A stretch of 64,000 bases of DNA, taken from positions 54,548-118,547 of IMG/VR virus record IMGVR_UViG_3300046477_000062; one strand, given 5' to 3'. Position 1 is the first letter of the stretch. Every line of letters begins with the position of its first letter. The stretch is from a virus. Taxonomy: Duplodnaviria > Heunggongvirae > Uroviricota > Caudoviricetes. The notes beneath the pieces are model-generated. The model had not been told where the DNA came from and did no database searches. It saw only the letters and a program-made list of their open reading frames with translations. Below, in pieces: positions 3,964-55,573 of this stretch. A program made the position numbers and the translations under genes.

Positions 3964-3993
3964 TTGACCACGTTTGGGAATTCATGTACAATG
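3964..3993 (+). promoter_or_regulatory. sigma70-like early promoter (TTGACC-N17-TACAAT)
   Basis: Hexamers with the conserved spacer motif CGTTTGGGAATTC in inverted orientation; no ORF follows for about 280 nt. Confidence 0.55.
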
Positions 3994-4275
3994 TGGTTTC
4001 ACAGTTGATGATGTTGATCAACACCGGTTGTGGGAAATCCGGGCAAAATTCCTAATTGACTGTGGGCGTGGCGAAATTGGTAAACGCTACGTGATAGTAG
4101 GGTTCTACCGTGCGGCGGTAAAGCTACGCGGTTCAAGGAATCCGAGGCCATGTTGCCTTTGTGCTTGCGGGTTCAACTCCCGCCGTCCACACAACCGGGT
4201 AGAGCGAGCAATTACGCCAGTTATCGGGAACATGCGACCCTGACTACCCGAACTAAACCTGTAGATAAACTAAAG
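3994..4275 (+). ncRNA. candidate structured non-coding RNA or long leader with a tRNA-like T-arm
   Basis: Promoter-driven region without a credible CDS. GCGGG-TTCAACT-CCCGC T-arm at 4167..4183; GTGGGCG at 4062 pairs with CGTCCAC at 4184. No canonical cloverleaf could be folded. Confidence 0.25.
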
Positions 4276-4482
4276 ATGAAGAAGCAAGCAACCCAGAAGT
4301 CGAAGATCGAAGCAATCCTGCGCAAAGGCCGTCTCCTGACGCCGACGCAAGCGAAGTCGTATGGCATCACCAAGCCGTCCGCGCGTATCAGCGAACTGCG
4401 TGACGATGGTCTGAACGTGCAAAGCACCACGAACAAGTCGGGCAAGTTTGCATGGAAGTTGGGTACGCCCGCTTTCGCCTAA
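4276..4482 (+). CDS. small basic HTH-like DNA-binding protein
   Basis: 69 aa, lysine-rich; GITKPSARISELRDDGL resembles a helix-turn-helix. Confidence 0.4.
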   Translation: MKKQATQKSKIEAILRKGRLLTPTQAKSYGITKPSARISELRDDGLNVQSTTNKSGKFAWKLGTPAFA

Positions 4483-4578
4483 GCATCATCCTGCACTGAA
4501 CTGCGCCACAAGCGGACCTTTCCCAAACATCTACGCTTGTGGCGTGTGCGAACCCCTACATCAACTGAGAAATATCGA

Positions 4579-5108: not shown

Positions 5109-5157
5109 CCCCAAACTTGTTTTCATCGAAAGATGTTGACACGTTTGGGGTTTTTTG
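5109..5157 (+). terminator. hairpin plus U-run that encloses the next promoter's -35
   Basis: CCCCAAAC ... GTTTGGGG inverted repeat followed by TTTTTT. Confidence 0.45.
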
Positions 5158-5164
5158 TTATAGT
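5136..5164 (+). promoter_or_regulatory. sigma70-like early promoter (TTGACA-N17-TATAGT)
   Basis: Hexamers with CGTTTGGGG spacer motif; conserved leader ACGGAG then ATG. Confidence 0.6.
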
Positions 5165-5195
5165 TCTTCCATACCAACGAAACGGAGCGCACCAC

Positions 5196-6371
5196 ATGAG
5201 CCAACTGATCATCGCTGAGTACCGCATCGAAGAACTGCTTGCCCGCGTGAAGAAGTTCAACAACAAGGCCAAGAAGCTGAATCTTCCGGTCATCGTGGCG
5301 ACGCAAACGGAACTGAAGTCGAAGACCTTCAAGTCCCGCGATTCGGACGGCATCCTGCGTGAGTACACGATCAACTACGCGACCTTCGATCTGGCTGGCG
5401 ACATCCCGCGTATCGACGGTTGGGCGATTCACTCGAAGGTCGAACCGTCTGGCGTGTTTGGTCAGAACTTCGTCTACTCGCAACCGGGTTTCGAACCGGT
5501 CGAAGCGCTGCGCACCACGGAGTTCATCTGCGAACACTGCAACATGAAGCGTGGCCGTTCGCTGGTGTACCTGCTTCAGAACATCGAGACGGGCGAACAG
5601 AAGTTGGTTGGTAAGTCGTGCCTGAAGGACTTCTTGCCGAACATCGATGTCGCTTCACTGCTGTCCTACCTCGAAGGGTTCCGTGAACTGAACACGTCGA
5701 ACCTCGATGAAGACGGCGAACGCGCTCCCCGCGAAGCTTACGTCTACAACACGAAGGAACTGATCGCAGAATGCCTCTACTCGATTCGCAAGGTCGGGTA
5801 TCGGTCAAAGAAGGCGGCACGCGACATGGGCGAAGAAGGCACGGAAACTTCGGCATGGATCGGTATCTCGGATGTCCAGAAGCGCGAAAAGCTGTACCCG
5901 CCCGTCGAAATGCGCCCGATCTTCGAATCCGGCGAAATCGAAAAGGTGGTCGAGTTCGTGAACGCCCTGAACCCGCGCGATGACTTCGGCTACAACCTGC
6001 AACTGGCGGTCCAACAGACGTATGCACCGATCAAGATGTTCGGTTTCGTAGCGGCGGGTGTTCAGATGTACCTGAAGTCGCTGGAAAAGGCCGCAGAAGC
6101 CGCGACGAAGACGAATGAGTACTTGGGGACTGTTGGTGAACGCATCGTCTTCAACGGCCTTAAAATCGTCCGCGTGACCCCGATTGAAGGTAGCTACGGT
6201 ACGACCTTCCTGACGGGCTTCGAAGATGATGCAGGCCGTTCGGTGGTCTGGTTTGCATCGAAGTGCCCCGGCAAGGTTGGTGAAGTGTTCAACCTGAAGG
6301 CCACGATTAAGGATCACAAGGAATATAACGGCACGAAGCAGACGGTGATTACCCGAGCATCGGAAGTGTAA
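5196..6371 (+). CDS. hypothetical protein with a central Cys zinc-ribbon
   Basis: 391 aa; CEHC...KSC motif; strong coding signal. Confidence 0.5.
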   Translation: MSQLIIAEYRIEELLARVKKFNNKAKKLNLPVIVATQTELKSKTFKSRDSDGILREYTINYATFDLAGDIPRIDGWAIHSKVEPSGVFGQNFVYSQPGFEPVEALRTTEFICEHCNMKRGRSLVYLLQNIETGEQKLVGKSCLKDFLPNIDVASLLSYLEGFRELNTSNLDEDGERAPREAYVYNTKELIAECLYSIRKVGYRSKKAARDMGEEGTETSAWIGISDVQKREKLYPPVEMRPIFESGEIEKVVEFVNALNPRDDFGYNLQLAVQQTYAPIKMFGFVAAGVQMYLKSLEKAAEAATKTNEYLGTVGERIVFNGLKIVRVTPIEGSYGTTFLTGFEDDAGRSVVWFASKCPGKVGEVFNLKATIKDHKEYNGTKQTVITRASEV

Positions 6372-6431: not shown

Positions 6432-6713
6432 ATGTTACGAAAGTGTAAAATCAGGACTGAGAATTGGTACTGGAATCGACAGCTTCAGCTTCGATTATTT
6501 CAGCTTGGTGTGATATGGCCGGGAGTGGGTCAGAGACTTTGGAACTGTCGCAACGGACGCGGGGACTACTTGTTCCTTGAACCTAAGTACGATGGTAGCG
6601 GCTGGTTTCTCAGTTGGGGTCGAGAATTCGACTTCGAACGCGCTGTTGATCTTCCCGAGACGACTGCGAAATTGTTACTGAAAGACCTCGAAGTGACATC
6701 CGTTAAAAACTAA
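6432..6713 (+). CDS. hypothetical protein
   Basis: ORF only; Trp-rich. Confidence 0.3.
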   Translation: MLRKCKIRTENWYWNRQLQLRLFQLGVIWPGVGQRLWNCRNGRGDYLFLEPKYDGSGWFLSWGREFDFERAVDLPETTAKLLLKDLEVTSVKN

Positions 6714-6716
6714 ATA
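6710..6716 (+). promoter_or_regulatory. CTAAATA late-promoter box within a CTAAATATTAGGT module
   Basis: The 13-mer CTAAATATTAGGT is identical to the one at 53635; TATTAGG/CCTAATA inverted repeat downstream. Confidence 0.4.
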
Positions 6717-6753
6717 TTAGGTTCAGATCAAATTCCTTCCTAATAACAGTTTT

Positions 6754-6807
6754 CCGCCTTCGGCGGCTGCGCTCGCGCAGATAACTAGTTCCTTACTTGT
6801 TCTTTTT
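6754..6807 (+). terminator. tandem GC hairpins (putative terminator or structured element)
   Basis: CCGCC-TTCG-GGCGG and CTGCGC-TCG-CGCAG hairpins, then a T-rich tail. Confidence 0.35.
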
Positions 6808-6899
6808 AGTTACCATGAACCCCAAAACCCATTATATCAATGTTGGGGATTCTTGTCAAGATAAATATTCGCGTTCCAACCTCAACAAAGGATACAACT

Positions 6900-18839: not shown

Positions 18840-19283
18840 ATGATCTTGGCGCACATGGATTGCGCCGAACGATATGCCCGACTGTCGAAGGCACGACGCC
18901 TGAAGGTTGGTGCGCTGGTGGTTGATGGGGATAAAGTCATCTCTATCGGCTACAACGGCACGGAACCCGGTGCAGACAACAACTGCGAAATCGAACCGGA
19001 AAATTGGGACGGTGACATCCGCACTCTGAAGACCAAGCCAGAAGTAATACACGCAGAAGTGAACGCGCTGAAGAAGTGCGAACCCGAATACGACGATGGT
19101 CAGCTTGTCTATTCTGACGCTGGTGGATGTGACCTGTTCTGTAACTTCGCGTGTTGTAAGCCTTGCGCCGAAGCGATGGTAAGTCACGGTATCAAGCGAT
19201 TCTTCTACCGCTACGCGTATCGCGACACGGCGGGACTTGACTATCTCAGAGAAGAAGGCGTGGAAGTCCGACAGATCGTGTAA
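18840..19283 (+). CDS. cd: dCMP deaminase
   Basis: HAEVNAL ... CKPCAEA zinc-binding deaminase motifs. Confidence 0.7.
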   Translation: MILAHMDCAERYARLSKARRLKVGALVVDGDKVISIGYNGTEPGADNNCEIEPENWDGDIRTLKTKPEVIHAEVNALKKCEPEYDDGQLVYSDAGGCDLFCNFACCKPCAEAMVSHGIKRFFYRYAYRDTAGLDYLREEGVEVRQIV

Positions 19284-19286
19284 GTC

Positions 19287-19293
19287 CTAAATA
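19287..19293 (+). promoter_or_regulatory. CTAAATA late-promoter box
   Basis: 35 nt upstream of the ATG at 19328. Confidence 0.35.
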
Positions 19294-19327
19294 CGTGAGA
19301 ATGAATTAACTATGGAGGATCATTCTC

Positions 19328-19483
19328 ATGCCAACCACGCACTTCGAATGTAACGATTGTGAAGCTGTTTTCGCAGTCAAGCATTCACTTAACAAAGACT
19401 ACTACCGGGTTCTGAATTGTCCGTTCTGCGGGTCGGAGCTAGACAACGAGGAATATGATGTGGACGAGAACATAGATGAATAA
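19328..19483 (+). CDS. small zinc-ribbon protein
   Basis: CNDC...CPFCG motifs; below the ORF-track cutoff. Confidence 0.3.
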   Translation: MPTTHFECNDCEAVFAVKHSLNKDYYRVLNCPFCGSELDNEEYDVDENIDE

Positions 19484-19706
19484 CGAAAAGACAGTCAAGA
19501 AGGTCGTCATCTATTACACAGATGGCACGTATCAGGAAGTTGAAGCAATCGCAGCACTCCCGAAGCCCTATACCGGTATTCGCGGTCCCTTCGTAGCACA
19601 ACCGGCAACGGAACCGCTACCGAACCCCGATGATTATTACTATCCCGGAAAGATCGGAACATGGCCGCATCCGCCCGCCGACACTGGTATCAAGATCGTA
19701 GACTGA
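19476..19706 (+). CDS. hypothetical protein
   Basis: ORF. Confidence 0.35.
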   Translation: MNNEKTVKKVVIYYTDGTYQEVEAIAALPKPYTGIRGPFVAQPATEPLPNPDDYYYPGKIGTWPHPPADTGIKIVD

Positions 19707-19716
19707 CCGCATAAAT

Positions 19717-19750
19717 ACCCATACATTCAAAACGTATGGGTATTTTCATT
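19717..19750 (+). terminator. rho-independent terminator
   Basis: ACCCATAC ... GTATGGGT hairpin followed by TATTTTCATTT. Confidence 0.6.
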
Positions 19751-19751
19751 T

Positions 19752-20153
19752 ATGTGGTTGTATCAAGGCAAAGAACAAACTGAAATTCCGGCTGGCATGG
19801 TTGGCTTCGTGTATCTAATCACGGACCATGTTAACAGCAAGAAGTATATCGGCAAGAAGCTGTACCACTTTGCCAAGACCAAGCAAGTCAAAGGCGTAAA
19901 GAAGAAGTACAAGGCCGAATCGGATTGGAAAGAGTATTATGGTTCCAATGACGAACTGAAAGCCTTGGTCGAACTACACGGTCCCGAGAAGTTCACGCGC
20001 GAGATTCTTCACCAATGCCCGAATAAAGGCGCATGTAATTATTGGGAAGCGTATGAGCAATTTGCTCGCCACGTCCTGCTATCCGACGAGTACTACAACG
20101 GATGGATCAGCGCAAAAATTACCAAATCTCACGTTGCAAAGTTGCGCAAGTAG
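19752..20153 (+). CDS. short GIY-YIG nuclease-domain protein (Seg-like homing-endonuclease relic?)
   Basis: GFVYLITDHVNSKKYIGKK GIY...YIG motif; only 133 aa. Confidence 0.45.
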   Translation: MWLYQGKEQTEIPAGMVGFVYLITDHVNSKKYIGKKLYHFAKTKQVKGVKKKYKAESDWKEYYGSNDELKALVELHGPEKFTREILHQCPNKGACNYWEAYEQFARHVLLSDEYYNGWISAKITKSHVAKLRK

Positions 20154-20207
20154 TCTGTAGAATGGTCCCGCGTCGATCAGGCGACGCTAATAAAAAGGGG
20201 AACAATC

Positions 20208-20705
20208 ATGCAGGTAGTATCAACGATGCCTTTGCAAACGTCTATGGAAGCTGCATTTGCGCCGTGGGCGATAGTAGAAAAGTGGTTAAGAAAGGCCAAG
20301 GAACATGATCTGCCCATCTCGATCAATGGTTTGATGGGGATGGAGGAAGTCAGTAAGATCGTGAATGGCCCACAGCAAGTACGAGACATCATCAGCACCT
20401 TCCATGCGAAGAAGATGGTCACGAAGCACGAACTGACCGAAGAACAGCGCACTGGCGACAAGCGCGACCGCATCGGATACATGTGGAATCGAGAATTCAA
20501 GGGCGAAGCCTACCGACCCGCCGTCAAGCCCAACAAGAAGCCATCCAAGCCCACGACGACCAAACCTAGTGTGAGTGTCGCTCATTCCCCCGAGAAGGCC
20601 AAGCAAGCCGCTCCCAAGGCCGTAGAACTCGTCTTTCAAGGCGTGACGCTTGTCGTCAGCCGAAACCCCGAGAACGGAAACACACGGATCGTTATCGAAG
20701 GTTAA
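20208..20705 (+). CDS. hypothetical protein with a Lys/Pro-rich linker
   Basis: ORF. Confidence 0.4.
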   Translation: MQVVSTMPLQTSMEAAFAPWAIVEKWLRKAKEHDLPISINGLMGMEEVSKIVNGPQQVRDIISTFHAKKMVTKHELTEEQRTGDKRDRIGYMWNREFKGEAYRPAVKPNKKPSKPTTTKPSVSVAHSPEKAKQAAPKAVELVFQGVTLVVSRNPENGNTRIVIEG

Positions 20706-20708
20706 TGT

Positions 20709-20738
20709 AAGCCCGATCAGAGATGGTCGGGCTTTTTG
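20709..20738 (+). terminator. rho-independent terminator (loop ATCAGAGATGG)
   Basis: GCCCGA-tcagagatgg-TCGGGC followed by TTTTT. Confidence 0.6.
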
Positions 20739-20752
20739 CTTTGGAGACGGGC

Positions 20753-20992
20753 ATGAACCTGTTCCGTATCTGCCTGTACGGTGGGAGAGAGTCTTTCCAT
20801 ACCGAAGACACGCCATTCGAGTGCTATGCCGACGCTGAAGTCTATGCTAGGGAGGAAGCGAAGATTTCGGGCGCATCTCTGTACGCGGTAGTCGATCTAA
20901 CAAACTTGGGAAATGATGTTGACAAGGTTCCCAAGTTTGGGTATGATTCACACATCGACAACAAACACAGGAGCGCAAGACATGGCAAATAA
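20753..20992 (+). CDS. hypothetical protein (C-terminal part doubtful; overlaps a promoter)
   Basis: ORF that runs through the 20919 promoter. Confidence 0.2.
   Translation: MNLFRICLYGGRESFHTEDTPFECYADAEVYAREEAKISGASLYAVVDLTNLGNDVDKVPKFGYDSHIDNKHRSARHGK
20919..20947 (+). promoter_or_regulatory. sigma70-like early promoter (TTGACA-N17-TATGAT)
   Basis: Flanked by a perfect 12-bp inverted repeat CAAACTTGGGAA / TTCCCAAGTTTG. Confidence 0.6.
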
Positions 20993-21128
20993 CTGGAAAG
21001 TGGATGATGCGACCGGCGAATGGACTCCGCTGTGCGAAGGTTCCCTGCAAGAGTGCAAGGACTTCTGTGCGATGTACGGCTTCAGCTACATCGTGTGCAA
21101 CGAGCGCAACATGCTGGTGGTTCTGTGA
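20982..21128 (+). CDS. small Cys-containing protein
   Basis: SD CAGGAG; 48 aa. Confidence 0.35.
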   Translation: MANNWKVDDATGEWTPLCEGSLQECKDFCAMYGFSYIVCNERNMLVVL

Positions 21129-21325
21129 AGACGCAGGATCAGGCCCGTAGAGAATTCGCGATCTACTACGAGGAAGTCAACGCGGACAGCAAGCGGGACG
21201 GTGGCGGCGGTGTTCATAAATCGGAACTGTGGGATATGTTCATCAATCACGGTATCGAAGAAGAACGCTTCCCCGCCGATGCGACGAACTGGAAGATGCC
21301 ACGGTCAACCAAGAAGTTAATCTAG
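21125..21325 (+). CDS. hypothetical protein (GTG start)
   Basis: ORF. Confidence 0.25.
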   Translation: MKTQDQARREFAIYYEEVNADSKRDGGGGVHKSELWDMFINHGIEEERFPADATNWKMPRSTKKLI

Positions 21326-21336
21326 GAGAGAAGAAC

Positions 21337-21597
21337 ATGTTGAGACTTCCCCCGCAAGACAGCGCAATCCGCGAGTGCTTCGATACGGCGCATCTTGCGG
21401 AACTCTGCGCACCCGAGAATCGGTTCAAGCTGCCGACCTTCCGGGAAGCACTGGCGAACGCGAAATCGTTCTTCACGGCGAACAAAGGTGTCCGTCAGGT
21501 AATTTCGATCACGCTGCGCGCCAATGGTGAACTGTGGCTGATCCAAGTTGGTCCGCGTGGCGGCTGGAAGGTTCTCTGGAATTTCGGACAACTGTAG
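21337..21597 (+). CDS. hypothetical protein
   Basis: SD GGAGAG. Confidence 0.35.
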   Translation: MLRLPPQDSAIRECFDTAHLAELCAPENRFKLPTFREALANAKSFFTANKGVRQVISITLRANGELWLIQVGPRGGWKVLWNFGQL

Positions 21598-21605
21598 GAG
21601 GGAGA

Positions 21606-21875
21606 GTGATTACCGTCAAATACTGTAAGCCCGCACCAAAGACGATCCGGGCTTGGATCGAGAAGAATCCCGAGAAGGTTGCTGAGTTCGACTGCGGCGG
21701 CGGTTATTCGAACGGATTCGCCTATGACATCCTGTTGGCTCCCGGCTGGCGCATGGGCGATGATTACGTCCACACACTCATATGCGACACCGTGGCTGAA
21801 ATGATGACCGAACTGCGCGCTGTCGTACCGTGTGACTGTGACGAGTGCAAAGAAATGCTGAAGCGAAAGACTTGA
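21606..21875 (+). CDS. hypothetical Cys-rich protein (GTG start)
   Basis: SD GGAGGGAG; CDCDEC motif. Confidence 0.3.
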   Translation: MITVKYCKPAPKTIRAWIEKNPEKVAEFDCGGGYSNGFAYDILLAPGWRMGDDYVHTLICDTVAEMMTELRAVVPCDCDECKEMLKRKT

Positions 21876-21900
21876 CAGATTCCCAAGTCTGGGTTAAGAT
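21872..21900 (+). promoter_or_regulatory. sigma70-like early promoter (TTGACA-N17-TAAGAT)
   Basis: Spacer GATTCCCAAGTCTGGGT. Confidence 0.6.
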
Positions 21901-21929
21901 TCACACATCGACAGCAAGGAGAGATTCAA

Positions 21930-22271
21930 ATGTTCACTACGGATTACGCGGGTCGCGGTGTGGATGCCCTGAACCAGATTTTTGATGGCATGATGTCCAA
22001 TCTCAAACACCAATGGAAGCGAGAAGCCATGATCCTGAACAGCCATCAAGTAGAAGCCGTGTACAGCGCAATGTGCGCACTGAACAACGTCACCGGCATG
22101 ATCCATGTCGTGATGCCCGGAAAGGACGCTGGTCAGACGATCACCGTGTTTCAAGAAGTGGTGTCACACGAAGTGGTGATTCATCTTCGCTCGATGGTCG
22201 AACCAGAACCGATCAGCACCGAACGATATAAGGACCAGAACGCTTTCATAAAAGCCTACGGTTTGGACTAA
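21930..22271 (+). CDS. hypothetical protein
   Basis: Conserved leader CATCGACAGCAAGGAGAG then ATG. Confidence 0.4.
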   Translation: MFTTDYAGRGVDALNQIFDGMMSNLKHQWKREAMILNSHQVEAVYSAMCALNNVTGMIHVVMPGKDAGQTITVFQEVVSHEVVIHLRSMVEPEPISTERYKDQNAFIKAYGLD

Positions 22272-22304
22272 AATACAACAATTAAACATCTTCGCGAGGA
22301 AACC

Positions 22305-22502
22305 ATGAGTCTGACCCGTAGTGAAAGTGAATTGCTGGAAGCCCGAGAGGGCGAACTGAACGACGCCGAACGTGGTGTAATCGATGCGACCTTCGATGCC
22401 CTCGAAGAAGCCGCAAAGGTCCGTGGCGTGAAGCTGGCCCGAGACGACCGTGTAGCAGCACTGGAAGCCGCACTGGTCCGATTCCTTCTGGCATCTCGAT
22501 AA
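22305..22502 (+). CDS. hypothetical protein
   Basis: ORF. Confidence 0.35.
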   Translation: MSLTRSESELLEAREGELNDAERGVIDATFDALEEAAKVRGVKLARDDRVAALEAALVRFLLASR

Positions 22503-22519
22503 ACAACAGGGAGTGAACG

Positions 22520-22816
22520 ATGAACAAAGAACGACGCAAGGCAATATCGAAGGCCCATGAGGAATTCGACAAGATCAAGTCCGACTATGACGAAATCATT
22601 GGTCGATTCGATGACCTCAAATCGCAGATTGAAGCCATCCGCGATGACGAACAGGAAGCGCGTGACAATCTTCCCGAGAATCAACAGGACGGCGACAAGG
22701 GTCAAGCGATGTCGGACGCTATCGAGAACCTTGAAAGCGCCATCGAGACGATTGAATCTCTGATGGAAGTCGATCTGGATTCGATCATTGACAACCTGAA
22801 CAGCGCATCGGAATAA
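22520..22816 (+). CDS. hypothetical acidic coiled-coil protein
   Basis: ORF. Confidence 0.4.
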   Translation: MNKERRKAISKAHEEFDKIKSDYDEIIGRFDDLKSQIEAIRDDEQEARDNLPENQQDGDKGQAMSDAIENLESAIETIESLMEVDLDSIIDNLNSASE

Positions 22817-22850
22817 ACCACAACCAAAGAACCTGAGAGAGCAATACATC

Positions 22851-23303
22851 ATGAGCAACCAAAACCAAAAGACCATCGTCGTGAAGCTGGACCCGCACAC
22901 TTCCTTCGAACAACATCTGAACTACGAGTTGGACAAGGCGGTGTTCCTGTGGGGACTTTTCAAGTCGCTGGTCCTCGGCGCTCTATTGATCGTTGCTCTA
23001 CTCGGCGCAATCGGCTGGTACACCGGCATCCTGAACCCGGATTCCAAGACGTGGACCAAGATCAATGCAGCGACCGCCGATCACGATGCACAGAAGGCAG
23101 TCGAACTGCACGATGTACCTTCGCAAGAAGTCATGAACGCGAAGCAGAACGCCGAACACCTGCGCGCCATCGGTTCGCCGTGGGCGGCAGATGCAGAAGC
23201 GGACTATGAGAAGGCAAAGGCCAAGGACGATGCTGCACGCGCGGCGCTGCGTCTTCGTGCGCAACAAGCAGCAGCGATCCACAAGGCCGTGAAGGACGAG
23301 TAA
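22851..23303 (+). CDS. membrane protein (single TM)
   Basis: TM segment LVLGALLIVALLGAIGWY. Confidence 0.4.
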   Translation: MSNQNQKTIVVKLDPHTSFEQHLNYELDKAVFLWGLFKSLVLGALLIVALLGAIGWYTGILNPDSKTWTKINAATADHDAQKAVELHDVPSQEVMNAKQNAEHLRAIGSPWAADAEADYEKAKAKDDAARAALRLRAQQAAAIHKAVKDE

Positions 23304-28211: not shown

Positions 28212-28741
28212 GCCGCTGGTGTAGCACGCTTCAGAACGTCATCCTTGTGTCCTTCATATTTGACGGGCACATGATGATTGTTTAGGACCACGGTCATACC
28301 GTTGGCTGTATAGCCGTGGTATCCGTGGTCCAGTACTGCACGTTCGAAGTCATTGTGTTCTTCTTCGCCGTTGTATTTGTGAGTTTCCGCAGTCTTGCGA
28401 ATCGCTGCACGTTCGTCTGGATGTGCCTTCGCATGATCATAAATCCCATGCAATGTTGCGCTATGCACATGCATCCCCAGACCGCCTTCATGCACAGGCG
28501 GTAACGCACCGTGTTCTTGTCGGTCATGGTTATAGAAGTAGACCCGAGACTTGATCCGGTCGTCCTTCGTCCATTGCAGACGCTTCCCTTCCGCACCTTT
28601 AATCCCCGTCCCCGAATATCGACCGTCCAGATGGTCAAGTCCCGGCTTGTTCGAGTAATGAATGCCGTGGACAGTCACGCCCTTCGTCGGCGCAGCTTCC
28701 TCGCGTTCGGCAAGGAACGATCTAAAAGTTTTCATTGACAT
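28211..28741 (-). CDS. histidine-rich hypothetical protein
   Basis: The only internal − strand gene; a CTAAATA box lies 21 nt upstream on the − strand. Confidence 0.45.
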
Positions 28742-28764
28742 ATCCCCAATGTTGTTGGTATTAT
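28735..28764 (+). promoter_or_regulatory. sigma70-like promoter (TTGACA-N18-TATTAT)
   Basis: Its -35 overlaps the start codon of the divergent − strand gene. Confidence 0.45.
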
Positions 28765-30070: not shown

Positions 30071-30098
30071 TTGACAAGAATTCCCAGACCTGTATAAT
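30071..30098 (+). promoter_or_regulatory. sigma70-like early promoter (TTGACA-N16-TATAAT), canonical cassette
   Basis: AGAATTCCCAGACCTG spacer; leader CCTTTTCATCGACAACACGAACGGGAG. Confidence 0.65.
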
Positions 30099-30507: not shown

Positions 30508-30536
30508 TTGACACGATTTCCCACGTTTGGTAAGAT
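30508..30536 (+). promoter_or_regulatory. sigma70-like early promoter (TTGACA-N17-TAAGAT)
   Basis: Spacer TTCCCACGTTTGG; CCCAAACGTGGG palindrome in the leader. Confidence 0.6.
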
Positions 30537-30580
30537 TCTTTCTGTCCCAAACGTGGGACGAACTGATAGGAGATTAGCAC

Positions 30581-32652: not shown

Positions 32653-32671
32653 TTCCCAAGTTTGTTTCTGC

Positions 32672-32700
32672 TTGACATGACTCCCGAGTGCGCGTATGAT
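32672..32700 (+). promoter_or_regulatory. sigma70-like early promoter (TTGACA-N17-TATGAT)
   Basis: Spacer CTCCCGAGTGCGCG; a second copy of TTCCCAAGTTTG lies 20 nt upstream. Confidence 0.6.
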
Positions 32701-32733
32701 TCATCTCATACCAACGCAACGGGAGTTTTTCAC

Positions 32734-33117
32734 ATGAAAAAGATCATCGACGTTCGCACCGAATCGAATCTGTACTCCGCTGGTCGTGACGAAGACGGAG
32801 AGGAAATCTACGGCGAATCGTTCAAGGTTGTGGTTGAGTTCGAAGGCGGCGAAGCCTACTGTCACGAACAAGCTTTCCCGACCGTCAAGTTGGAAGCTGT
32901 GTGGTGCGACGACATCAACGAGATGGTTCTGGGAAACGCCATCAACCCGGAAGAACAGAAGGCCAAGGCCGAACGTCTGTGCGCGAGAGTACTACGCCAC
33001 GTCGAAGCTGGTGGTAAGATTGACATGGACCACTGGACCTTCTACCGCACGGTTTACGGGACGCAAGCATACCTCGATGAAGTGGCCGCGATGACGCCGG
33101 AACAACGAGCACAATAA
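32734..33117 (+). CDS. hypothetical protein
   Basis: Leader ACGGGAG. Confidence 0.4.
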   Translation: MKKIIDVRTESNLYSAGRDEDGEEIYGESFKVVVEFEGGEAYCHEQAFPTVKLEAVWCDDINEMVLGNAINPEEQKAKAERLCARVLRHVEAGGKIDMDHWTFYRTVYGTQAYLDEVAAMTPEQRAQ

Positions 33118-34221: not shown

Positions 34222-34249
34222 TTGACAACCACTCCCAGACCTGTATAAT
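34222..34249 (+). promoter_or_regulatory. sigma70-like early promoter (TTGACA-N16-TATAAT)
   Basis: Spacer ACCACTCCCAGACCTG. Confidence 0.6.
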
Positions 34250-35620: not shown

Positions 35621-35649
35621 TTGACACGTATTCCCAGACTTGTTATAAT
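35621..35649 (+). promoter_or_regulatory. sigma70-like early promoter (TTGACA-N17-TATAAT)
   Basis: Spacer CGTATTCCCAGACTTGT. Confidence 0.6.
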
Positions 35650-36891: not shown

Positions 36892-38019
36892 ATGAGCAAG
36901 CAATATGATGTGGTGGTGTATCGCGGTCGATTCCAAGGTTTCCATAATGCGCACCTGAAGACGATCCTGATGGCGCTTCAGTTCGCCAAGAAGGTCATCG
37001 TCGTTGTCGGTAGTGCGAATGAAGCCCGCACGTACTATCGCAATCCGTTCTTTGAAGACGAGCGCATCGAGATGATCAAGGGCGCACTGTCGGATCACTT
37101 CCGTCACGAAGATGTGTCGTTCGTTTCGGTTCAAGATAACCCGAGCGATAGCGCATGGGCGGAAGATGTCGAGAACAAGGTTGCCACGCGTGTCAGTCGC
37201 CTGTTCGAAGGAACCGAAGGTGTCGTCAGCATCGCACAGATCGGCTTCAAGAAAGACGCCAACTGCGAACGCGATGTCAATCTGTTCCCGAATTGGGAAT
37301 ACATCGATACGCCCAACTTCGAACCGCTTGACGCTACGCATGTGCGCGAAGTTCTGTTCAGCATGAAGCCGCTTTCGTTCCTTGCTGGTGTCTGTCCGCA
37401 TTCGGTGATTCAATATCTCGAAGGGTTCCGCCAGTCGCAAACATGGTTGAACATGTTCGAAGAAAAGGTCTTCGTTGAGAACTACCAGAAGCAGTTTGCC
37501 GGTCTTCCGTATGCTCCCACGTTCGTCACTGGCGACAACGTAGCAATTCAACGTGGCCGCGTGCTTCTGGTGAAGCGCAAGGGTCATCCGGGTAAGGGTC
37601 TGTGGGCGCTTCCCGCTGGCTTCTTCAACGCAGCAAAGTATGTGAATGGCAAGGGCGAAATCGTCCCGGCTGATCGCGATCCGTTCGACTGTGCGACGCG
37701 TGAACTGTTCGAAGAAACGAATGCCAAGGTCACGCGTATCGAACTGGAAATGCGGGCGATTGCGAAGGAAGTGTTCGCGGCTGAAGGCCGTGATCCGCGT
37801 GGCCGCATCATCACTCATGCATTCGCCTACAACCTCGATACGTTGCCCGATCTTGAAACTGAAGCGGCTGATGATGCAGAAGAACTCGGTTGGTTCTTCC
37901 TCAGTGATCTTGATCCCCACACGATCTACGCGGACCACTACCAGATCATCAAGTGGGGCTTCCAAGAGTACTACAAGATCAGCAATTGGACCTTGCAAGA
38001 TCGGCTGAACCGCATCTGA
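36892..38019 (+). CDS. natV: bifunctional NMN adenylyltransferase / Nudix ADP-ribose pyrophosphatase (NadM-Nudix, NatV-like)
   Basis: GRFQGFHNAH (H/T-x-G-H) nucleotidyltransferase motif; Nudix box RELFEETN. Confidence 0.7.
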   Translation: MSKQYDVVVYRGRFQGFHNAHLKTILMALQFAKKVIVVVGSANEARTYYRNPFFEDERIEMIKGALSDHFRHEDVSFVSVQDNPSDSAWAEDVENKVATRVSRLFEGTEGVVSIAQIGFKKDANCERDVNLFPNWEYIDTPNFEPLDATHVREVLFSMKPLSFLAGVCPHSVIQYLEGFRQSQTWLNMFEEKVFVENYQKQFAGLPYAPTFVTGDNVAIQRGRVLLVKRKGHPGKGLWALPAGFFNAAKYVNGKGEIVPADRDPFDCATRELFEETNAKVTRIELEMRAIAKEVFAAEGRDPRGRIITHAFAYNLDTLPDLETEAADDAEELGWFFLSDLDPHTIYADHYQIIKWGFQEYYKISNWTLQDRLNRI

Positions 38020-38041
38020 ACAACAACTACAGGAACTACAA

Positions 38042-39397: not shown

Positions 39398-39412
39398 ATT
39401 CCCAGATTTGGG

Positions 39413-39441
39413 TTGACAAGTTAAGGACCAACAGGTATGAT
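39413..39441 (+). promoter_or_regulatory. sigma70-like early promoter (TTGACA-N17-TATGAT) embedded in a terminator hairpin
   Basis: AATTCCCAGATTTGGG motif upstream of the -35; hairpin GGACCAACAGG/CCTGTTGGTCC plus TTTTT (39425..39461). Confidence 0.5.
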
Positions 39442-39478
39442 TCTGCCTGTTGGTCCTTTTTCATTTCAGGAGATTGCT

Positions 39479-39781: not shown

Positions 39782-39799
39782 AATTCCCGCGTTTGGGTA

Positions 39800-39828
39800 T
39801 TGACGAAGGATTCTCAAACATGTAGAAT
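39800..39828 (+). promoter_or_regulatory. sigma70-like early promoter (TTGACG-N17-TAGAAT)
   Basis: AATTCCCGCGTTTGGG upstream; leader CCTTTTCATCGAATCAACAACGGAG. Confidence 0.55.
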
Positions 39829-39861
39829 CCTTTTCATCGAATCAACAACGGAGTGCAGCAC

Positions 39862-40152
39862 ATGGCAATCACCATTCGCACCAACAACGTCCCGCGCAAT
39901 CCGGTCTACGGTTACGAACTGTCCGAGAAAGAGCGCAAGGAATTCGACTACATCGACGCGGAACACTTCGATGGTCACAGCTTCCTGCGCTACAAGGGCG
40001 AACTGTATGACCTGTCGGACTTCATGCGCGCAACGGACATCGCTGATCTGAAGGGTTGGGACGGCTACGCTTCGGATTCCTACTTCAGCGGCATCGTGAT
40101 CAAGTACGTTGACAACTTCGAACGTGTCATCGTCGGAACCTACATCTCCTAG
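39862..40152 (+). CDS. hypothetical protein
   Basis: ORF. Confidence 0.4.
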   Translation: MAITIRTNNVPRNPVYGYELSEKERKEFDYIDAEHFDGHSFLRYKGELYDLSDFMRATDIADLKGWDGYASDSYFSGIVIKYVDNFERVIVGTYIS

Positions 40153-40505: not shown

Positions 40506-40867
40506 CCATCCGCAAAGTCAACTCCGCTGCACCAATTACCGAAGCCGATGCTGGCAAGTTCATCAATCGCGATACGATCTGGCGCGATGGCTTTTGTAGC
40601 CGTCCCGCACGCGTCACAAAGGTCGCAAAGAGTCGCGTCTACTACAACGACACGGCCCGCGTCCGGAACAACCGAGAGTGTGTCGGCTTCACCGTCGAAG
40701 AAGGCGAATCGTTCTGTAAGATGGATAGCATCAAGTTCCTCTGCGACACCATCGAAGAAGCCGCGAAGCTGGAAAAGATGTCGGAAAACCAAGTCCGGGA
40801 AATCAACGAATCGCGCAAGGTCATCATCGAAAAGTACAACAGACTTGTAGATTCTCTCTTGACATGA
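40502..40867 (+). CDS. hypothetical protein
   Basis: ORF. Confidence 0.4.
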   Translation: MTIRKVNSAAPITEADAGKFINRDTIWRDGFCSRPARVTKVAKSRVYYNDTARVRNNRECVGFTVEEGESFCKMDSIKFLCDTIEEAAKLEKMSENQVREINESRKVIIEKYNRLVDSLLT

Positions 40868-40887
40868 ATTCCCAAGTTCGGTAGAAT
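40859..40887 (+). promoter_or_regulatory. sigma70-like early promoter (TTGACA-N17-TAGAAT)
   Basis: Spacer TGAATTCCCAAGTTCGG. Confidence 0.6.
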
Positions 40888-42478: not shown

Positions 42479-42507
42479 GTTGACAACGACCGGCATTGAG
42501 CGTACAA
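42479..42507 (+). promoter_or_regulatory. sigma70-like early promoter (TTGACA-N17-TACAAT)
   Basis: Upstream CAAACTTG motif. Confidence 0.5.
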
Positions 42508-42553
42508 TTCTTTGTGTCGGTTCTGAAACAAAAACACCTTTGGGAGTTTCATC

Positions 42554-46386: not shown

Positions 46387-46415
46387 TTGACAATGGTGGG
46401 AATCTTGTTTAAGAT
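46387..46415 (+). promoter_or_regulatory. sigma70-like early promoter (TTGACA-N17-TAAGAT)
   Basis: Spacer has GGTGGGAATC (inverted family motif); ATTCCCA follows the -10. Confidence 0.55.
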
Positions 46416-46445
46416 TCCCATTATCGTTTCTACAGGAGGAAAGTT

Positions 46446-47902: not shown

Positions 47903-47928
47903 GCCGGTCGAAAGATCGGCCTTTTTTG
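47903..47928 (+). terminator. rho-independent terminator
   Basis: GGCCGGTC-gaaa-GATCGGCC followed by TTTTTTG. Confidence 0.6.
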
Positions 47929-47938
47929 TTTCTGGGTA

Positions 47939-47967
47939 TTGACAATGAATTCCCAGACCTGTATATT
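47939..47967 (+). promoter_or_regulatory. sigma70-like early promoter (TTGACA-N17-TATATT)
   Basis: Spacer ATGAATTCCCAGACCTG. Confidence 0.55.
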
Positions 47968-48001: not shown

Positions 48002-48322
48002 ATGGCAAAGGCAATTTACGATCTGCGCGACGGCAAGAACCACGCTCAATACCTCGTCTTGAAGAAGGCATCGGGTCATTACCTGATCTTCGCGAACAAC
48101 GTAACCGATGCCGTTGGCGAAATCCGCAAGCGTGCGCACAACGACTGGTACGGTGAAGTCACCATCGATGACATGTTCTTCAACTGCTGCGATGACAGTC
48201 TCGCGGATGTCATGAGTGGTCTGGAAACGTGCATCGTGCGCAACGGCAAGCCGGGTTCGATCTACCAGAAGGATGCGGCAGCGTGGACACAAAACCTGTT
48301 GGATCGTCTCCGAAAGGGTTGA
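48002..48322 (+). CDS. hypothetical protein
   Basis: Leader CCGGGAGAG. Confidence 0.4.
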   Translation: MAKAIYDLRDGKNHAQYLVLKKASGHYLIFANNVTDAVGEIRKRAHNDWYGEVTIDDMFFNCCDDSLADVMSGLETCIVRNGKPGSIYQKDAAAWTQNLLDRLRKG

Positions 48323-48346
48323 CATTCATTCCCGAGTCTGTATAAT
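48319..48346 (+). promoter_or_regulatory. sigma70-like early promoter (TTGACA-N16-TATAAT)
   Basis: Spacer TTCATTCCCGAGTCTG; leader CATCGACAACGCACTTGGGAG. Confidence 0.6.
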
Positions 48347-49009: not shown

Positions 49010-49024
49010 TTTTCATGTTTGGGA

Positions 49025-49053
49025 TTGACATCAGGTTCCCAAACCTGTAGAAT
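49025..49053 (+). promoter_or_regulatory. sigma70-like early promoter (TTGACA-N17-TAGAAT)
   Basis: Spacer TCAGGTTCCCAAACCTG; leader TCTTTTCATCGACAACGAAACGGGAG. Confidence 0.65.
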
Positions 49054-49087
49054 TCTTTTCATCGACAACGAAACGGGAGATTCAAAC

Positions 49088-55472: not shown

Positions 55473-55501
55473 TTGACAAGCGCGGGGATTTGTGGTAAAA
55501 G
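55473..55501 (+). promoter_or_regulatory. sigma70-like promoter (TTGACA-N17-TAAAAG/AAAGAT)
   Basis: The -35 abuts the stop of the upstream gene; AATTCCCAAACATGG and AATTTCCAAAAGG repeats in the leader. Confidence 0.4.
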
Positions 55502-55573
55502 ATTCATGCCCGATGTGGGCGGATATCACAAATTCCCAAACATGGCAATGAATTTCCAAAAGGACACGCAATC

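What the first reader, a model, noticed from the sequence alone, without database searches (positions are those of the whole stretch)
20901..20938. Promoter spacer motif TTCCCA(N4-6)TGGG occurs as inverted pairs and palindromes around -35 elements
At 20901..20938 a perfect 12-bp inverted repeat, CAAACTTGGGAA / TTCCCAAGTTTG, brackets the -35. At 5109..5150 CCCCAAAC / GTTTGGGG does the same, with a U-run downstream. At 30545 the leader holds CCCAAACGTGGG. At 3972 and 46395 the motif sits in inverted orientation inside the spacer. At 39395, 39785 and 32652 it sits upstream of the -35. An element that recurs in both orientations and at variable positions relative to the hexamers looks more like a protein-binding site or recombination hotspot than a simple RNA polymerase contact. 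Candidates are a phage or host regulator, or the homology patch for cassette shuffling.
Basis: seen in the sequence. Interest (0 to 1): 0.6.

Follow-up and report, generated by a model that had tools for sequence, protein, structure and literature searches.

The report
Promoter–stem-loop cassettes of a T4-like phage
The motif is the C-rich box of a repeated early-promoter cassette in an uncultured T4-like phage; with nearby G-rich partners it forms stem-loops around the promoter hexamers, much like the promoter/terminator "PeSL" cassettes already described in T4-type phages.

Summary
The window comes from a T4-like phage and carries 19 near-consensus sigma-70 promoters (TTGACA-N16-18-TAnnAT), 18 of them on the + strand. 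Each sits in a roughly 100-nt cassette with a CA-rich leader, a Shine-Dalgarno site and an ATG. Thirteen of the 19 spacers hold a (T/A)TCCC(A/G) box, against 6% expected. Nine of the 20 + strand TTCCCA copies lie in 0.9% of the window. Across five related phage contigs the box is conserved almost as well as the -10 hexamer. Its position is mostly fixed: CCC starts 5-7 nt after the -35 in 49 of 54 boxes.

In about a third of cassettes the box pairs with a G-rich arm upstream, enclosing the -35, or downstream, enclosing the -10, the start site or the ribosome-binding site. Orthologues keep several of these helices through compensatory changes, and three are followed by U-runs. RB49 PeSL cassettes show the same architecture and similar leaders.

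Best reading: a PeSL-type promoter/stem-loop cassette. A dedicated protein operator is not needed for the inverted pairs, but it is not excluded for the unpaired conserved box. Breakpoints between relatives do not favour the cassettes beyond their share of gene junctions. This is a new member of a known kind, of modest interest.

The parts
20901..20912 (+). 5' arm CAAACTTGGGAA of the 12-bp inverted repeat around the -35. It also lies in the 3' end of ORF 20753-20992, where it codes T-N-L-G.
   Evidence: Invariant in relatives A (L022) and B (L023).
20919..20947 (+). Promoter P20919: TTGACA, a 17-nt spacer and TATGAT. The spacer holds the box and 3' arm TTCCCAAGTTTG (20928-20939) and the palindrome CCCAAGTTTGGG (20930-20941). 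The gene starts at ATG 20982.
5109..5164 (+). Overlapping terminator and promoter P5136. The stem is CCCCAAAC (5109-5116) / GTTTGGGG (5143-5150), with an inner CATC-GAAA-GATG helix. TTGACA (5136-5141) lies in the loop, the U-run 5151-5156 forms the spacer, and TATAGT is at 5159-5164.
   Evidence: z = -4.3; 23 pairs, 6 compensatory, in four phages
3964..3992 (+). Promoter P3964 (TTGACC-N17-TACAAT) with the box inverted in the spacer (TGGGAATTC, 3975-3983). The inversion is conserved in four phages.
6831..6859 (-). The only minus-strand cassette promoter (TTGACA-agaATCCCCAacattga-TATAAT). The box has the same orientation relative to transcription. A G-rich partner TTGGGGTTC lies 3' of the -10.
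21872..21900 (+). Promoter P21872 with TTCCCAAGTCTGGG (21880-21893) in the spacer.
28735..28764 (+). Promoter P28735 with ATCCCCAA in an 18-nt spacer. In relatives A and B the box is predicted to pair with the Shine-Dalgarno region.
30071..30098 (+). Promoter P30071 of the canonical 16-nt-spacer class (agaATTCCCAGACCTG-TATAAT). It has no upstream arm. The box is predicted to pair with AUGGGA at the start codon in all four orthologues.
30508..30558 (+). Promoter P30508. The spacer arm TCCCACGTTTGG (30519-30530) pairs with the leader arm CCAAACGTGGGA (30547-30558), enclosing the -10 and the start site.
   Evidence: 17 pairs, 1 compensatory A-U to G-C in relative B
32653..32740 (+). An upstream copy ATTCCCAAGTTTG (from 32653), then promoter P32672 (32672-32700). 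Its spacer ACTCCCG pairs with the Shine-Dalgarno sequence CGGGAGT of the downstream gene.
34222..34249 (+). Promoter P34222 (accaCTCCCAGACCTG-TATAAT), with no strong partner arm.
35621..35649 (+). Promoter P35621 (cgtATTCCCAGACTTGt-TATAAT), with no conserved partner arm.
39399..39458 (+). The palindrome TTCCCAGATTTGGG (39399-39412) lies directly 5' of TTGACA (39413). The spacer and the region after the -10 form a 15-bp terminator-like hairpin (39423-39458) followed by TTTTCATTT, with TATGAT in its loop.
   Evidence: (z = -3.3)
39784..39828 (+). TTCCCGCGTTTGGGTA lies directly 5' of TTGACG (39800). The spacer AAGGATTCT pairs with AGAATCCTT, which includes the -10.
40859..40887 (+). Promoter P40859 (tgaATTCCCAAGTTCGG-TAGAAT).
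46387..46422 (+). Promoter P46387. The spacer GGTGGGAATCTT (inverted box) pairs with AAGATTCCCATT, which is the -10 plus a forward TTCCCA at 46415. The result is a 12-bp hairpin with a 4-nt loop and a U-rich tail.
   Evidence: z = -3.3; 3 compensatory pairs against the ~92% orthologue
47906..47967 (+). A canonical terminator (GGCCGGTCGAAAGATCGGCC + TTTTTTG), then TTTCTGGGTA-TTGACA-atgaaTTCCCAGACCTG-TATATT. TCTGGG pairs with CCCAGA around the -35.
   Evidence: (z = -3.6)
48319..48346 (+). Promoter P48319. The spacer TCCCGAGT is complementary to ACTTGGGA at the Shine-Dalgarno site.
49014..49053 (+). GTTTGGGA lies directly 5' of TTGACA (49025) and pairs with TCCCAAAC in the spacer, giving 10 of 11 bp around the -35.
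42480..42508 (+). Promoter P42480, a cassette promoter without the box. CAAACTTG lies 10 nt 5' of the -35.

Best explanation
The motif is the C-rich box of a repeated early-promoter cassette of a T4-like phage. The cassette reads: optional G-rich arm, TTGACA, 4-7 nt, (T/A)TCCC(A/G)rAyyTG(g), TAnnAT, TC, a CA-rich leader, GGAG, ATG.

**Shown here**
- The cassettes are near-consensus sigma-70 promoters, co-oriented with the genes.
- The box is under purifying selection.
- In roughly a third of cassettes the box is one arm of a conserved helix. The other arm lies either just 5' of the -35, so the -35 sits in the loop, or 3' of the -10, so that the -10, the start site and sometimes the Shine-Dalgarno site or AUG are enclosed.

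**Inferred**
- The helices act in RNA that reads through from upstream promoters.
- Those followed by U-rich tracts (5136, 39413, 46387) terminate or attenuate upstream transcription inside the next promoter.
- Those covering the ribosome-binding site keep the downstream gene silent on read-through RNA. The cassette's own transcript starts inside the helix, lacks the 5' arm and is translated, as in T4 genes e, soc, 49 and I-TevI.

This is the architecture described for PeSL (promoter-early stem-loop) cassettes, whose G-run/C-run stems occupy five different registers relative to the hexamers. The repeat at 20901-20939 is one such stem, of the type that encloses the -35 and has no U-run. Why the box stays conserved in cassettes with no partner arm is not explained by pairing alone.
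For: **T4-like genome.** The window encodes UvsX, a gp41-type helicase, a gp61-type primase, a gp32-type SSB, RNR, a ligase and a SegE-like endonuclease. The best UvsX matches are T4-like Stenotrophomonas and Acidovorax phages.

**Promoters.** All matches of at least 10 of 12 hexamer positions within the 39 kb scanned (20000-58999) lie on the gene strand. Across the whole window there are 19 cassettes with a common leader.

**Box enrichment.** It is in 13 of 19 spacers against 6.3% expected, and 9 of 20 TTCCCA copies lie in 0.86% of the window.

**Conservation.** In divergent orthologue pairs, identity is 0.59 upstream, 0.97 in the -35, 0.65 in the first four spacer bases, 0.85 in the box (0.93 and 0.91 at the CC), 0.90 in the -10 and 0.53 in the leader.

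**Helices.**
- 33% of promoter regions have a folding z below -2.
- The spacer is specifically matched to its own flank in 11 of 35 independent groups, binomial p = 0.007 and 0.03.
- The box CCC has predicted pairing probability above 0.9 in about half of cassettes, against 22% for control CCC triplets.
- The type of partner is the same across orthologues in most groups.

**Compensatory changes.** Six pairs change on both sides at 5136, alongside G-U pairs and a U-run. Three do so at 46387 between orthologues about 92% identical, and one at 30508.

**Known counterpart.**
- RB49 PeSLs read TTGACA-GGGGATCnnnGATCCCC-TATAAT followed by a CA-rich leader.
- Their leaders are more similar to those of the window than any of 300 shuffles.
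- The literature describes stems between the hexamers, overlapping the -35 or -10, upstream or downstream, with terminator activity (PMC2839356; PMC4122927).
- TIR-masking helices with internal promoters are documented in T4 (PMC3014915).
Against: - About two thirds of cassettes show no specific partner arm, yet they keep the box (30071, 34222, 35621, 40859). Pairing therefore cannot be the only constraint.
- The flagged repeat at 20901-20939 has no U-run and shows no compensatory change. In relatives A and B only the spacer arm changed, giving one wobble and one mismatch each. Its 5' arm is also coding sequence, which could explain its invariance.
- Sense and antisense folding z-scores differ little on average (-1.36 against -1.12), so RNA versus DNA is not settled. 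Some groups, such as 28735, fold better on the antisense strand.
- Loops of 12-26 nt are large for intrinsic terminators.
- The A/T-rich tract 5' of the -35, typical of PeSLs, is weak here.
- No transcript data exist for this uncultured phage.
Confidence: 0.6

Rival explanations
1. The box is an operator for a sequence-specific DNA-binding protein, from the phage (for example an early-promoter shut-off factor) or from the host. The protein would bind CCCA-N4-TGGG as a dimer, or TCCCA as a half-site, and would occlude or modulate the promoter.
For: - The box is conserved almost as well as the -10 even where no partner arm exists.
- A 12-bp palindrome CCCR-N4-YGGG with conserved arms and a variable centre occurs in 5 cassettes of the window.
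- In the two promoters whose spacers are taken up by another hairpin arm (39413, 39800), a complete palindromic copy sits directly 5' of the -35.
- The exact complement TGGGAATTC of the common GAATTCCCA is conserved in the 3964 spacer in four phages.
- A winged-helix protein is encoded at 4276-4482.
- The mechanism of early-promoter shut-off in T4 is still unknown (PMC2988021).
Against: - Most copies are asymmetric (CCCAGACCTG) and have one orientation and one register.
- Long arms are true inverted repeats in their asymmetric centres and change in a compensatory way, which half-site recognition does not predict.
- Partner arms lie at very different distances (loops of 4-33 nt), incompatible with one fixed protein geometry.
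- There are no copies outside promoters above background.
- No link between the box and any encoded protein was found.
Confidence: 0.15
2. The box is a spacer element read by the host RNA polymerase itself, through contacts or DNA shape around -25 to -20. It would be part of an unusually information-rich phage early promoter, and the inverted partners would be secondary.
For: - Register and orientation are fixed relative to the hexamers on both strands, including the minus-strand promoter at 6859.
- Conservation is independent of any partner arm.
- Other non-hexamer positions are also conserved: G immediately 5' of the -10 in 59 of 76 promoters, and TC after the -10.
- T4 early promoters are known to carry extra regions of consensus beyond the UP, -35, TGn and -10 elements (PMC2988021).
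- From my own knowledge: a spacer 'Z-element' contacted by the beta-prime zipper has been described (Yuzenkova et al. 2011, EMBO J).
Against: - Six of 19 cassettes in the window lack the forward box although they have perfect or near-perfect hexamers.
- Three groups carry the complement instead.
- The offset varies from 3 to 7 nt.
- This reading does not explain the co-adapted partner arms or the compensatory changes.
- RB49 PeSLs place the C-run in a different register, directly against the -10.
Confidence: 0.15
3. The motif matters mainly as a homology patch. The repeated cassettes serve as recombination sites that shuffle small genes, and the conservation reflects concerted evolution more than a regulatory function.
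For: - PeSL-mediated exchange and mini-circles are documented in RB49/phi1 (PMC2839356).
- Six of 16 indel or replacement events between the window and relative A touch a cassette. Examples are an insertion right after the P20919 leader at 20968, and homology resuming 7 nt before the -35 at 30064.
- Leader similarity to RB49 suggests that the cassettes move between lineages.
Against: - Only 5 of 32 breakpoint edges lie in cassettes, the same share as gene junctions that carry a cassette (15%).
- Ten of 16 events have no cassette at either edge, and none maps to the spacer motif.
- Concerted evolution would homogenise whole cassettes, yet the first spacer bases and the leaders diverge while the box and the hexamers do not.
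Confidence: 0.07

Closest known systems
PeSL (promoter-early stem-loop) cassettes of T4-type phages: RB49/phi1, T4/PST, KVP40/nt-1 (Arbiol et al. 2010, PMC2839356; Comeau et al. 2014, PMC4122927)
   Same: - The genome is T4-like.
- Cassettes of about 100 nt are repeated between small early ORFs.
- Each has a near-perfect TTGACA-N16-17-TATAAT promoter.
- Stems are built from G-runs and C-runs, as in RB49 (GN-loop-CN) and nt-1 (A3-4G3-loop-C3T3-4). They may lie between the hexamers, overlap the -35 or the -10, or lie upstream or downstream.
- G-T pairs occur in the stems.
- A Shine-Dalgarno site and ATG lie at the 3' end.
- CA-rich leaders resemble those of RB49.
   Different: - The C-rich arm here has a nearly fixed sequence and register in the middle of the spacer, and it is kept in many cassettes that have no G-rich partner.
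- Stems within the spacer, the commonest RB49 form, are rare. Most stems enclose a whole hexamer, with loops of 12-26 nt.
- The A/T-rich tract 5' of the -35 is weak.
- No excess of recombination breakpoints was seen.
- Terminator activity is untested.
T4 translation-initiation-region masking helices with an internal promoter: genes e, soc, 49, I-TevI (review PMC3014915)
   Same: The 5' arm of the helix lies upstream of the promoter's start site and the 3' arm covers the Shine-Dalgarno site or AUG. Only the promoter's own transcript therefore exposes the ribosome-binding site. This is seen at 32672, 48319, 28735 (relatives A and B), L017:6297 and 30071.
   Different: In T4 the internal promoters are late or middle promoters, and the purpose is temporal control. 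Here they are sigma-70 consensus promoters, presumably early, and only about 5 of 24 orthologue groups show this geometry.
Intrinsic (Rho-independent) terminators overlapping the next promoter
   Same: P5136, P39413 and P46387 each have a GC-rich stem followed by a U-rich tract, and the stems are conserved by compensatory changes.
   Different: The flagged repeat at 20901-20939, and those at 30508 and 49025, have no U-run directly after the stem, and their loops are large.
T4 early promoters with extra consensus beyond the sigma-70 elements (review PMC2988021)
   Same: Phage early promoters carry more information than host promoters, including in and around the spacer.
   Different: The T4 extras are UP elements and TGn. 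A TCCC box around -25 to -20 is not among them.

Membership tests
PeSL cassette (T4-type phages) | Resides in a T4-type phage genome | tested here: met
   UvsX, a gp41-like helicase, a gp61-like primase, a gp32-like SSB, a SegE-like endonuclease, RNR and a ligase are encoded. The nearest isolates are T4-like phages. The two near-complete relatives are 168 kb.
PeSL cassette (T4-type phages) | Strong sigma-70-like promoter (TTGACA-N17-TATAAT or close), co-oriented with the downstream ORF, with a Shine-Dalgarno site and ATG at the 3' end of the cassette | tested here: met
   There are 19 cassettes. In the 39 kb scanned, all matches of at least 10 of 12 positions lie on the gene strand, and a leader with GGAG and ATG lies 25-45 nt after the -10.
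PeSL cassette (T4-type phages) | A stable stem-loop, often G-run/C-run, in one of several registers relative to the hexamers | tested here: inconclusive
   This is met for about a third to a half of cassettes: z below -2 in 33%, co-adapted arms in 11 of 35 groups, and compensatory changes at 5136, 46387 and 30508. The remaining cassettes carry only the C-rich box.
PeSL cassette (T4-type phages) | A/T-rich tract upstream of the -35 | tested here: inconclusive
   There is only a weak A/T preference at -5 to -8 and -15 to -19, with 0.2-0.4 bit per position.
PeSL cassette (T4-type phages) | The stem-loop terminates or attenuates upstream transcription | not testable with these tools
   Only predictions are available. 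U-rich tails follow the stems at 5136, 39413 and 46387, and none follows the stem at 20901-20939.
PeSL cassette (T4-type phages) | Preferential association with insertions, deletions or replacements between close relatives | tested here: inconclusive
   Five of 32 breakpoint edges lie in cassettes, against 5.6% of sequence (p = 0.03) but about 15% of gene junctions. Ten of 16 events have no cassette at either edge.
PeSL cassette (T4-type phages) | Sequence resemblance to described PeSLs | tested here: met
   RB49 cassettes have the same layout with a C-run in the spacer. Leader similarity exceeds all 300 shuffles. An nhmmer profile of the leaders alone found nothing.
Palindromic operator of a dimeric repressor | Two-fold symmetric consensus at fixed half-site spacing, equally valid in both orientations | tested here: not met
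   The full CCCR-N4-YGGG palindrome occurs in only 5 cassettes of the window. 54 of 76 promoters carry the asymmetric forward box. The distance to the partner arm varies from 4 to 33 nt.
Palindromic operator of a dimeric repressor | A cognate DNA-binding protein that recognises the site | not testable with these tools
   A winged-helix protein (HTH_39, E = 4.7e-8) is encoded at 4276-4482. No evidence ties it to the box.
Intrinsic terminator | GC-rich hairpin immediately followed by a U-run | tested here: not met
   This applies to the flagged repeat 20901-20939, whose stem is followed by GGTATGATTCAC. The feature is met at 5109-5156, 39423-39466 and, more loosely, at 46395-46430.
T4-type TIR-masking helix with internal promoter | The 5' arm lies upstream of the internal start site and the 3' arm covers the Shine-Dalgarno site or AUG | tested here: inconclusive
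   This is predicted with probability above 0.9 at 32672, 48319, 30071 and in orthologues of 28735, but not at 20919 or in most other cassettes.

The most novel reading that the evidence does not exclude
The TCCC box at about -25 to -20 is kept in cassettes that have no pairing partner, and it is conserved as strongly as the -10. It could be a new promoter element in its own right. One possibility is a contact point for host RNA polymerase. Another is the target of a phage factor that switches early promoters off, a step whose mechanism is still unknown even in T4. In this reading the stem-loops are a second function built on top of the box.
Probability: 0.15. Interest if true: 0.65.

Novelty: new member of a known kind. 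Interest (0 to 1): 0.3.

Why it matters
This extends PeSL-type promoter/stem-loop cassettes to a divergent, uncultured, GC-rich branch of T4-like phages. Orthologue comparisons give direct evidence that the stems are under selection for pairing. That supports the view that T4-type phages pack terminator, promoter and translation control into one roughly 100-nt module. The similarity of the leaders to RB49 cassettes hints that such modules are shared or exchanged across very distant T4-like lineages. The conserved unpaired box is a small open question. For annotation, the cassettes give a reliable map of early transcription units in this phage group.

Tried and rejected
- **Near-identical phage records.** Megablast of 19000-23000 against 50,697 phage records found nothing. 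The 747-aa minus-strand protein has no tblastn match.
- **Metagenome scan.** A spacer-neutral cassette pattern returned three unrelated chance hits, so no extra relatives were gained.
- **Nearest isolates.** The 41-kb regions of Stenotrophomonas phage DLP6 and Acidovorax phage ACP17 contain no promoter passing my filter, so they could not be compared.
- **Leader profile.** An nhmmer profile of the leaders alone found nothing in RB49. Pairwise local alignment against shuffles did show similarity.
- **Sense versus antisense folding.** This test of RNA against DNA gave mean z of -1.36 against -1.12, which is not decisive.
- **Recombination hotspot.** Rejected as the main explanation after the breakpoint count.
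- **General anti-Shine-Dalgarno role.** Only 7 of 54 boxes are predicted to pair with the Shine-Dalgarno site, so this holds for a subset only.
- **Other promoter classes considered.**
  - A MotA-box-like middle promoter element does not fit. A perfect -35 is present, and the box lies about 6 nt closer to the -10 than a MotA box.
  - Sigma-32, sigma-54 and sigma-E consensus sequences do not fit the spacing.
  - N4-type hairpin promoters do not fit, because the hexamers are sigma-70 consensus.
- **tRNAs.** None is present in the window.
- **First gene call.** A greedy caller picked antisense shadow ORFs and was replaced by a strand-restricted one.
Full report
**1. What is at the coordinates**

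The window reads ...ctaaCAAACTTGGGAAatgatgTTGACAaggTTCCCAAGTTTGggTATGATtcacacatcgacaac...ATG.
- The two 12-nt arms lie at 20901-20912 and 20928-20939. They are perfectly complementary and enclose a 15-nt loop that holds the -35 hexamer (20919-20924).
- TATGAT follows at 20942-20947, and a small gene starts at ATG 20982.

**2. Context**

Almost all genes run on the + strand up to about 60.8 kb. They encode a UvsX-like recombinase, a gp41-type helicase, a gp61-type primase, thymidylate synthase, RNR, an ATP-dependent ligase, NAMPT and an NMNAT-Nudix protein, a SegE-like GIY-YIG endonuclease and a gp32-type SSB.
- UvsX is closest, at about 54% amino-acid identity, to T4-like phages of Stenotrophomonas and Acidovorax. 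Their neighbouring genes are the T4 replication set.
- There is no close DNA match among 50,697 phage records.
- IMG/VR holds five related contigs.
  - Contig A (168.5 kb) is about 90% identical to the window.
  - Contig B (167.8 kb) is about 70-80% identical.
  - Three shorter contigs, C, D and E, are more distant.
- The window is therefore from an uncultured T4-like phage with 52% GC.

**3. The motif belongs to a repeated promoter cassette**

A hexamer-only scan finds 19 sites in the window with TTGACA (at most one mismatch), a 16-18-nt spacer and TAnnAT. Eighteen are on the + strand and one is on the minus strand. The independent scanner agrees for the 39 kb it was run on (20000-58999): all matches of at least 10 of 12 positions lie on the gene strand.

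The sites share more than the hexamers:
- G immediately 5' of the -10, in 59 of 76 promoters;
- TC after the -10;
- a T-rich stretch followed by CATCGACAAC-like, CA-rich leaders;
- GGAG or GGGAG, and an ATG 25-45 nt after the -10.

The box (T/A)TCCC(A/G) is in 13 of 19 spacers, against 6.3% expected from its frequency in the window (p = 5e-12). Nine of the 20 + strand TTCCCA copies lie in the 549 nt of promoter cores.

In 76 promoters from the window and the five relatives, 54 carry the forward box. Its CCC starts 6 nt after the -35 in 32 of these and 5-7 nt after it in 49. The minus-strand promoter at 6859 has the box in the same orientation relative to transcription.

**4. The box is under selection**

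In 45 orthologous promoter pairs that involve the more distant relatives, identity is as follows:

| Region | Identity |
|---|---|
| 30 nt upstream | 0.59 |
| -35 hexamer | 0.97 |
| First four spacer bases | 0.65 |
| Box (0.93 and 0.91 at its two central C) | 0.85 |
| -10 hexamer | 0.90 |
| Leader | 0.53 |

This holds in cassettes that have no pairing partner.

**5. The inverted pairs are base-paired stems in a subset of cassettes**

- One third of the 76 promoter regions fold with z below -2.
- I paired each spacer with its own flanks and with the flanks of non-orthologous promoters. The own upstream flank ranks in the best 5% in 6 of 35 independent groups, and the own downstream flank in 5 of 35 (p = 0.007 and 0.03).
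- In a partition-function model of read-through RNA, the box CCC is paired with probability above 0.9 in about half of cassettes, against 22% for control CCC triplets elsewhere. In 17 of 54 the partner lies upstream, in 18 downstream and in 7 at the Shine-Dalgarno site. Orthologues usually keep the same type of partner.

Orthologue alignments show compensation:
- **P5136.** The helix has 23 pairs in four phages. Six changed on both sides and several changed from A-U to G-U. It is followed by a U-run. The -35 sits in its loop and the U-run forms the spacer.
- **P46387.** The helix has 12 pairs with three double changes between two orthologues about 92% identical. Its 3' arm is the -10 plus a forward TTCCCA.
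- **P30508.** It has 17 pairs, one of them compensated.
- **The flagged 20901-20939 helix.** It is retained in A and B, but only with a wobble and a mismatch each and with no compensation. Its invariant 5' arm also encodes T-N-L-G at the end of ORF 20753-20992. It is therefore among the less well supported stems.

**6. Comparison with what is known**

Arbiol et al. (PMC2839356) and Comeau et al. (PMC4122927) described PeSLs in T4-type phages. These are cassettes of about 100 nt with a strong sigma-70-like promoter, a Shine-Dalgarno site and ATG. They carry a stem-loop, often poly-G/poly-C. The stem can lie between the -35 and -10, overlap either box, or lie upstream or downstream. It terminates upstream transcription in a reporter.

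I scanned 50 kb of RB49 with the same filter. Its cassettes read aaaaagttgTTGACAggggatcaccgatccccTATAATacacacataccgaaacgaa..aggagaatcaaaATG. The layout matches the window's cassettes. The leaders are more similar to the window's than any of 300 composition-preserving shuffles; examples are CATCGAATCAA and CATACCAACGA.

A second known parallel is the T4 set of genes e, soc, 49 and I-TevI. There a helix masks the ribosome-binding site on long transcripts, and a promoter inside the helix yields a translatable RNA (PMC3014915). The cassettes at 32672, 48319 and 30071, and the orthologues of 28735, have this geometry.

**7. What the pairing model does not explain**

- The box is conserved in cassettes with no partner (30071, 34222, 35621, 40859).
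- In two promoters whose spacers are used by another hairpin (39413, 39800), a complete palindromic copy sits directly 5' of the -35.
- The exact complement of GAATTCCCA is conserved in the 3964 spacer in four phages.

These points keep two rivals alive: a protein operator and a contact element for RNA polymerase. Against the operator are the asymmetry of most copies, the compensatory changes, the widely varying arm spacing and the absence of copies outside promoters. Against a pure polymerase contact are the six box-less cassettes and the co-adapted arms. A winged-helix protein (HTH_39) is indeed encoded at 4276-4482, but nothing connects it to the box.

**8. Recombination**

Chaining the window against relative A gives 16 indel or replacement events with 32 edges.
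- Five edges lie within a cassette. Examples are an insertion of about 350 nt right after the P20919 leader, and homology resuming 7 nt before the -35 at 30064.
- That share exceeds the 5.6% of sequence that cassettes occupy (p = 0.03), but it equals the roughly 15% of gene junctions that carry a cassette.
- Ten events have no cassette at either edge, and none maps to the spacer motif.
- The 'hotspot' reading is therefore not supported as the reason for the motif, although occasional cassette-mediated exchange is compatible with the data.

**9. Verdict**

The best-supported reading is a PeSL-type promoter/stem-loop cassette and not a dedicated protein-binding site.
- **Shown:** the motif's enrichment, its register, its conservation, and conserved pairing in a subset of cassettes.
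- **Inferred:** that the stems act in read-through RNA as terminators, attenuators or masks of the ribosome-binding site.
- **Open:** the role of the unpaired box.
- **Scores:** new member of a known kind; interest 0.3.

Noticed in passing
window cassette leaders (e.g. 5165-5198, 39829-39864, 49054-49090) against L033 (RB49, NC_005066 100001-150000): The leaders of the window's cassettes resemble those of RB49 PeSLs. Shared strings include CATCGAATCAA, CATACCAACGA and GGAGAaTCAAAcATG. The mean local alignment score is 7.97 against 6.00 +/- 0.15 for shuffles, and the maximum is 18 against 10.9 (0 of 300 shuffles reach it). The two phages are otherwise very distant, so this suggests shared or exchanged cassettes.
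   Followed up: partly
window 6831-6859 (minus strand); L025:5393, L026:11647, L027:11680: A perfect TTGACA-N17-TATAAT promoter with the box points against all neighbouring genes. It is conserved in four phages. It would transcribe the 6714-6830 intergenic region antisense to the end of gene 6432-6713. No ORF or known RNA was assigned to it.
   Followed up: no
window 4504-4544: An 11-bp perfect stem CGCCACAAGCG / CGCTTGTGGCG lies between the winged-helix gene and the next gene. Its 19-nt loop displays TTCCCAAAC. It has no U-run and folds at -26.8 kcal/mol. The region is alignable in relatives A and B.
   Followed up: partly
window 20753-20992: An ORF of about 79 aa with a codon-periodic substitution pattern in A and B reads straight through promoter P20919 and its leader. 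It ends 11 nt inside the next gene, so the flagged repeat is partly coding sequence (..DLTNLGNDVDKVPKFGYDS..).
   Followed up: partly
window 20968-21321: The window carries about 350 nt that relative A lacks: a 48-aa gene at 20982-21128 plus further sequence. The insertion lies exactly between the P20919 leader and the gene that the orthologous promoter drives in A.
   Followed up: partly
window 19752-20153: This is a SegE-like GIY-YIG homing endonuclease gene (Pfam PF19835, E = 1e-35), a mobile element typical of T4-like phages.
   Followed up: no
window 4276-4482: This small gene encodes a winged helix-turn-helix protein (Pfam HTH_39, E = 4.7e-8) and lies downstream of promoter P3964. The 221 nt just upstream (4052-4273) are replaced in relative A.
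   Followed up: partly
all 76 promoters: G directly 5' of the -10 occurs in 59 of 76 promoters, usually as TG or GG. This is one base closer to the -10 than the classical TGn extended -10. C at the second base after the -10 occurs in 59 of 76. Neither was explained.
   Followed up: no
window 36892-39397: An NMNAT-Nudix (NadR-like) gene and a nicotinamide phosphoribosyltransferase gene lie side by side, forming an NAD salvage pair like that of some large vibriophages.
   Followed up: no
window 55473-55545: TTGACA with a weak -10 (TAAAAG) is followed by TTCCCAAAC immediately before an ATG. This may be a degraded or atypical cassette that my promoter filter missed.
   Followed up: no
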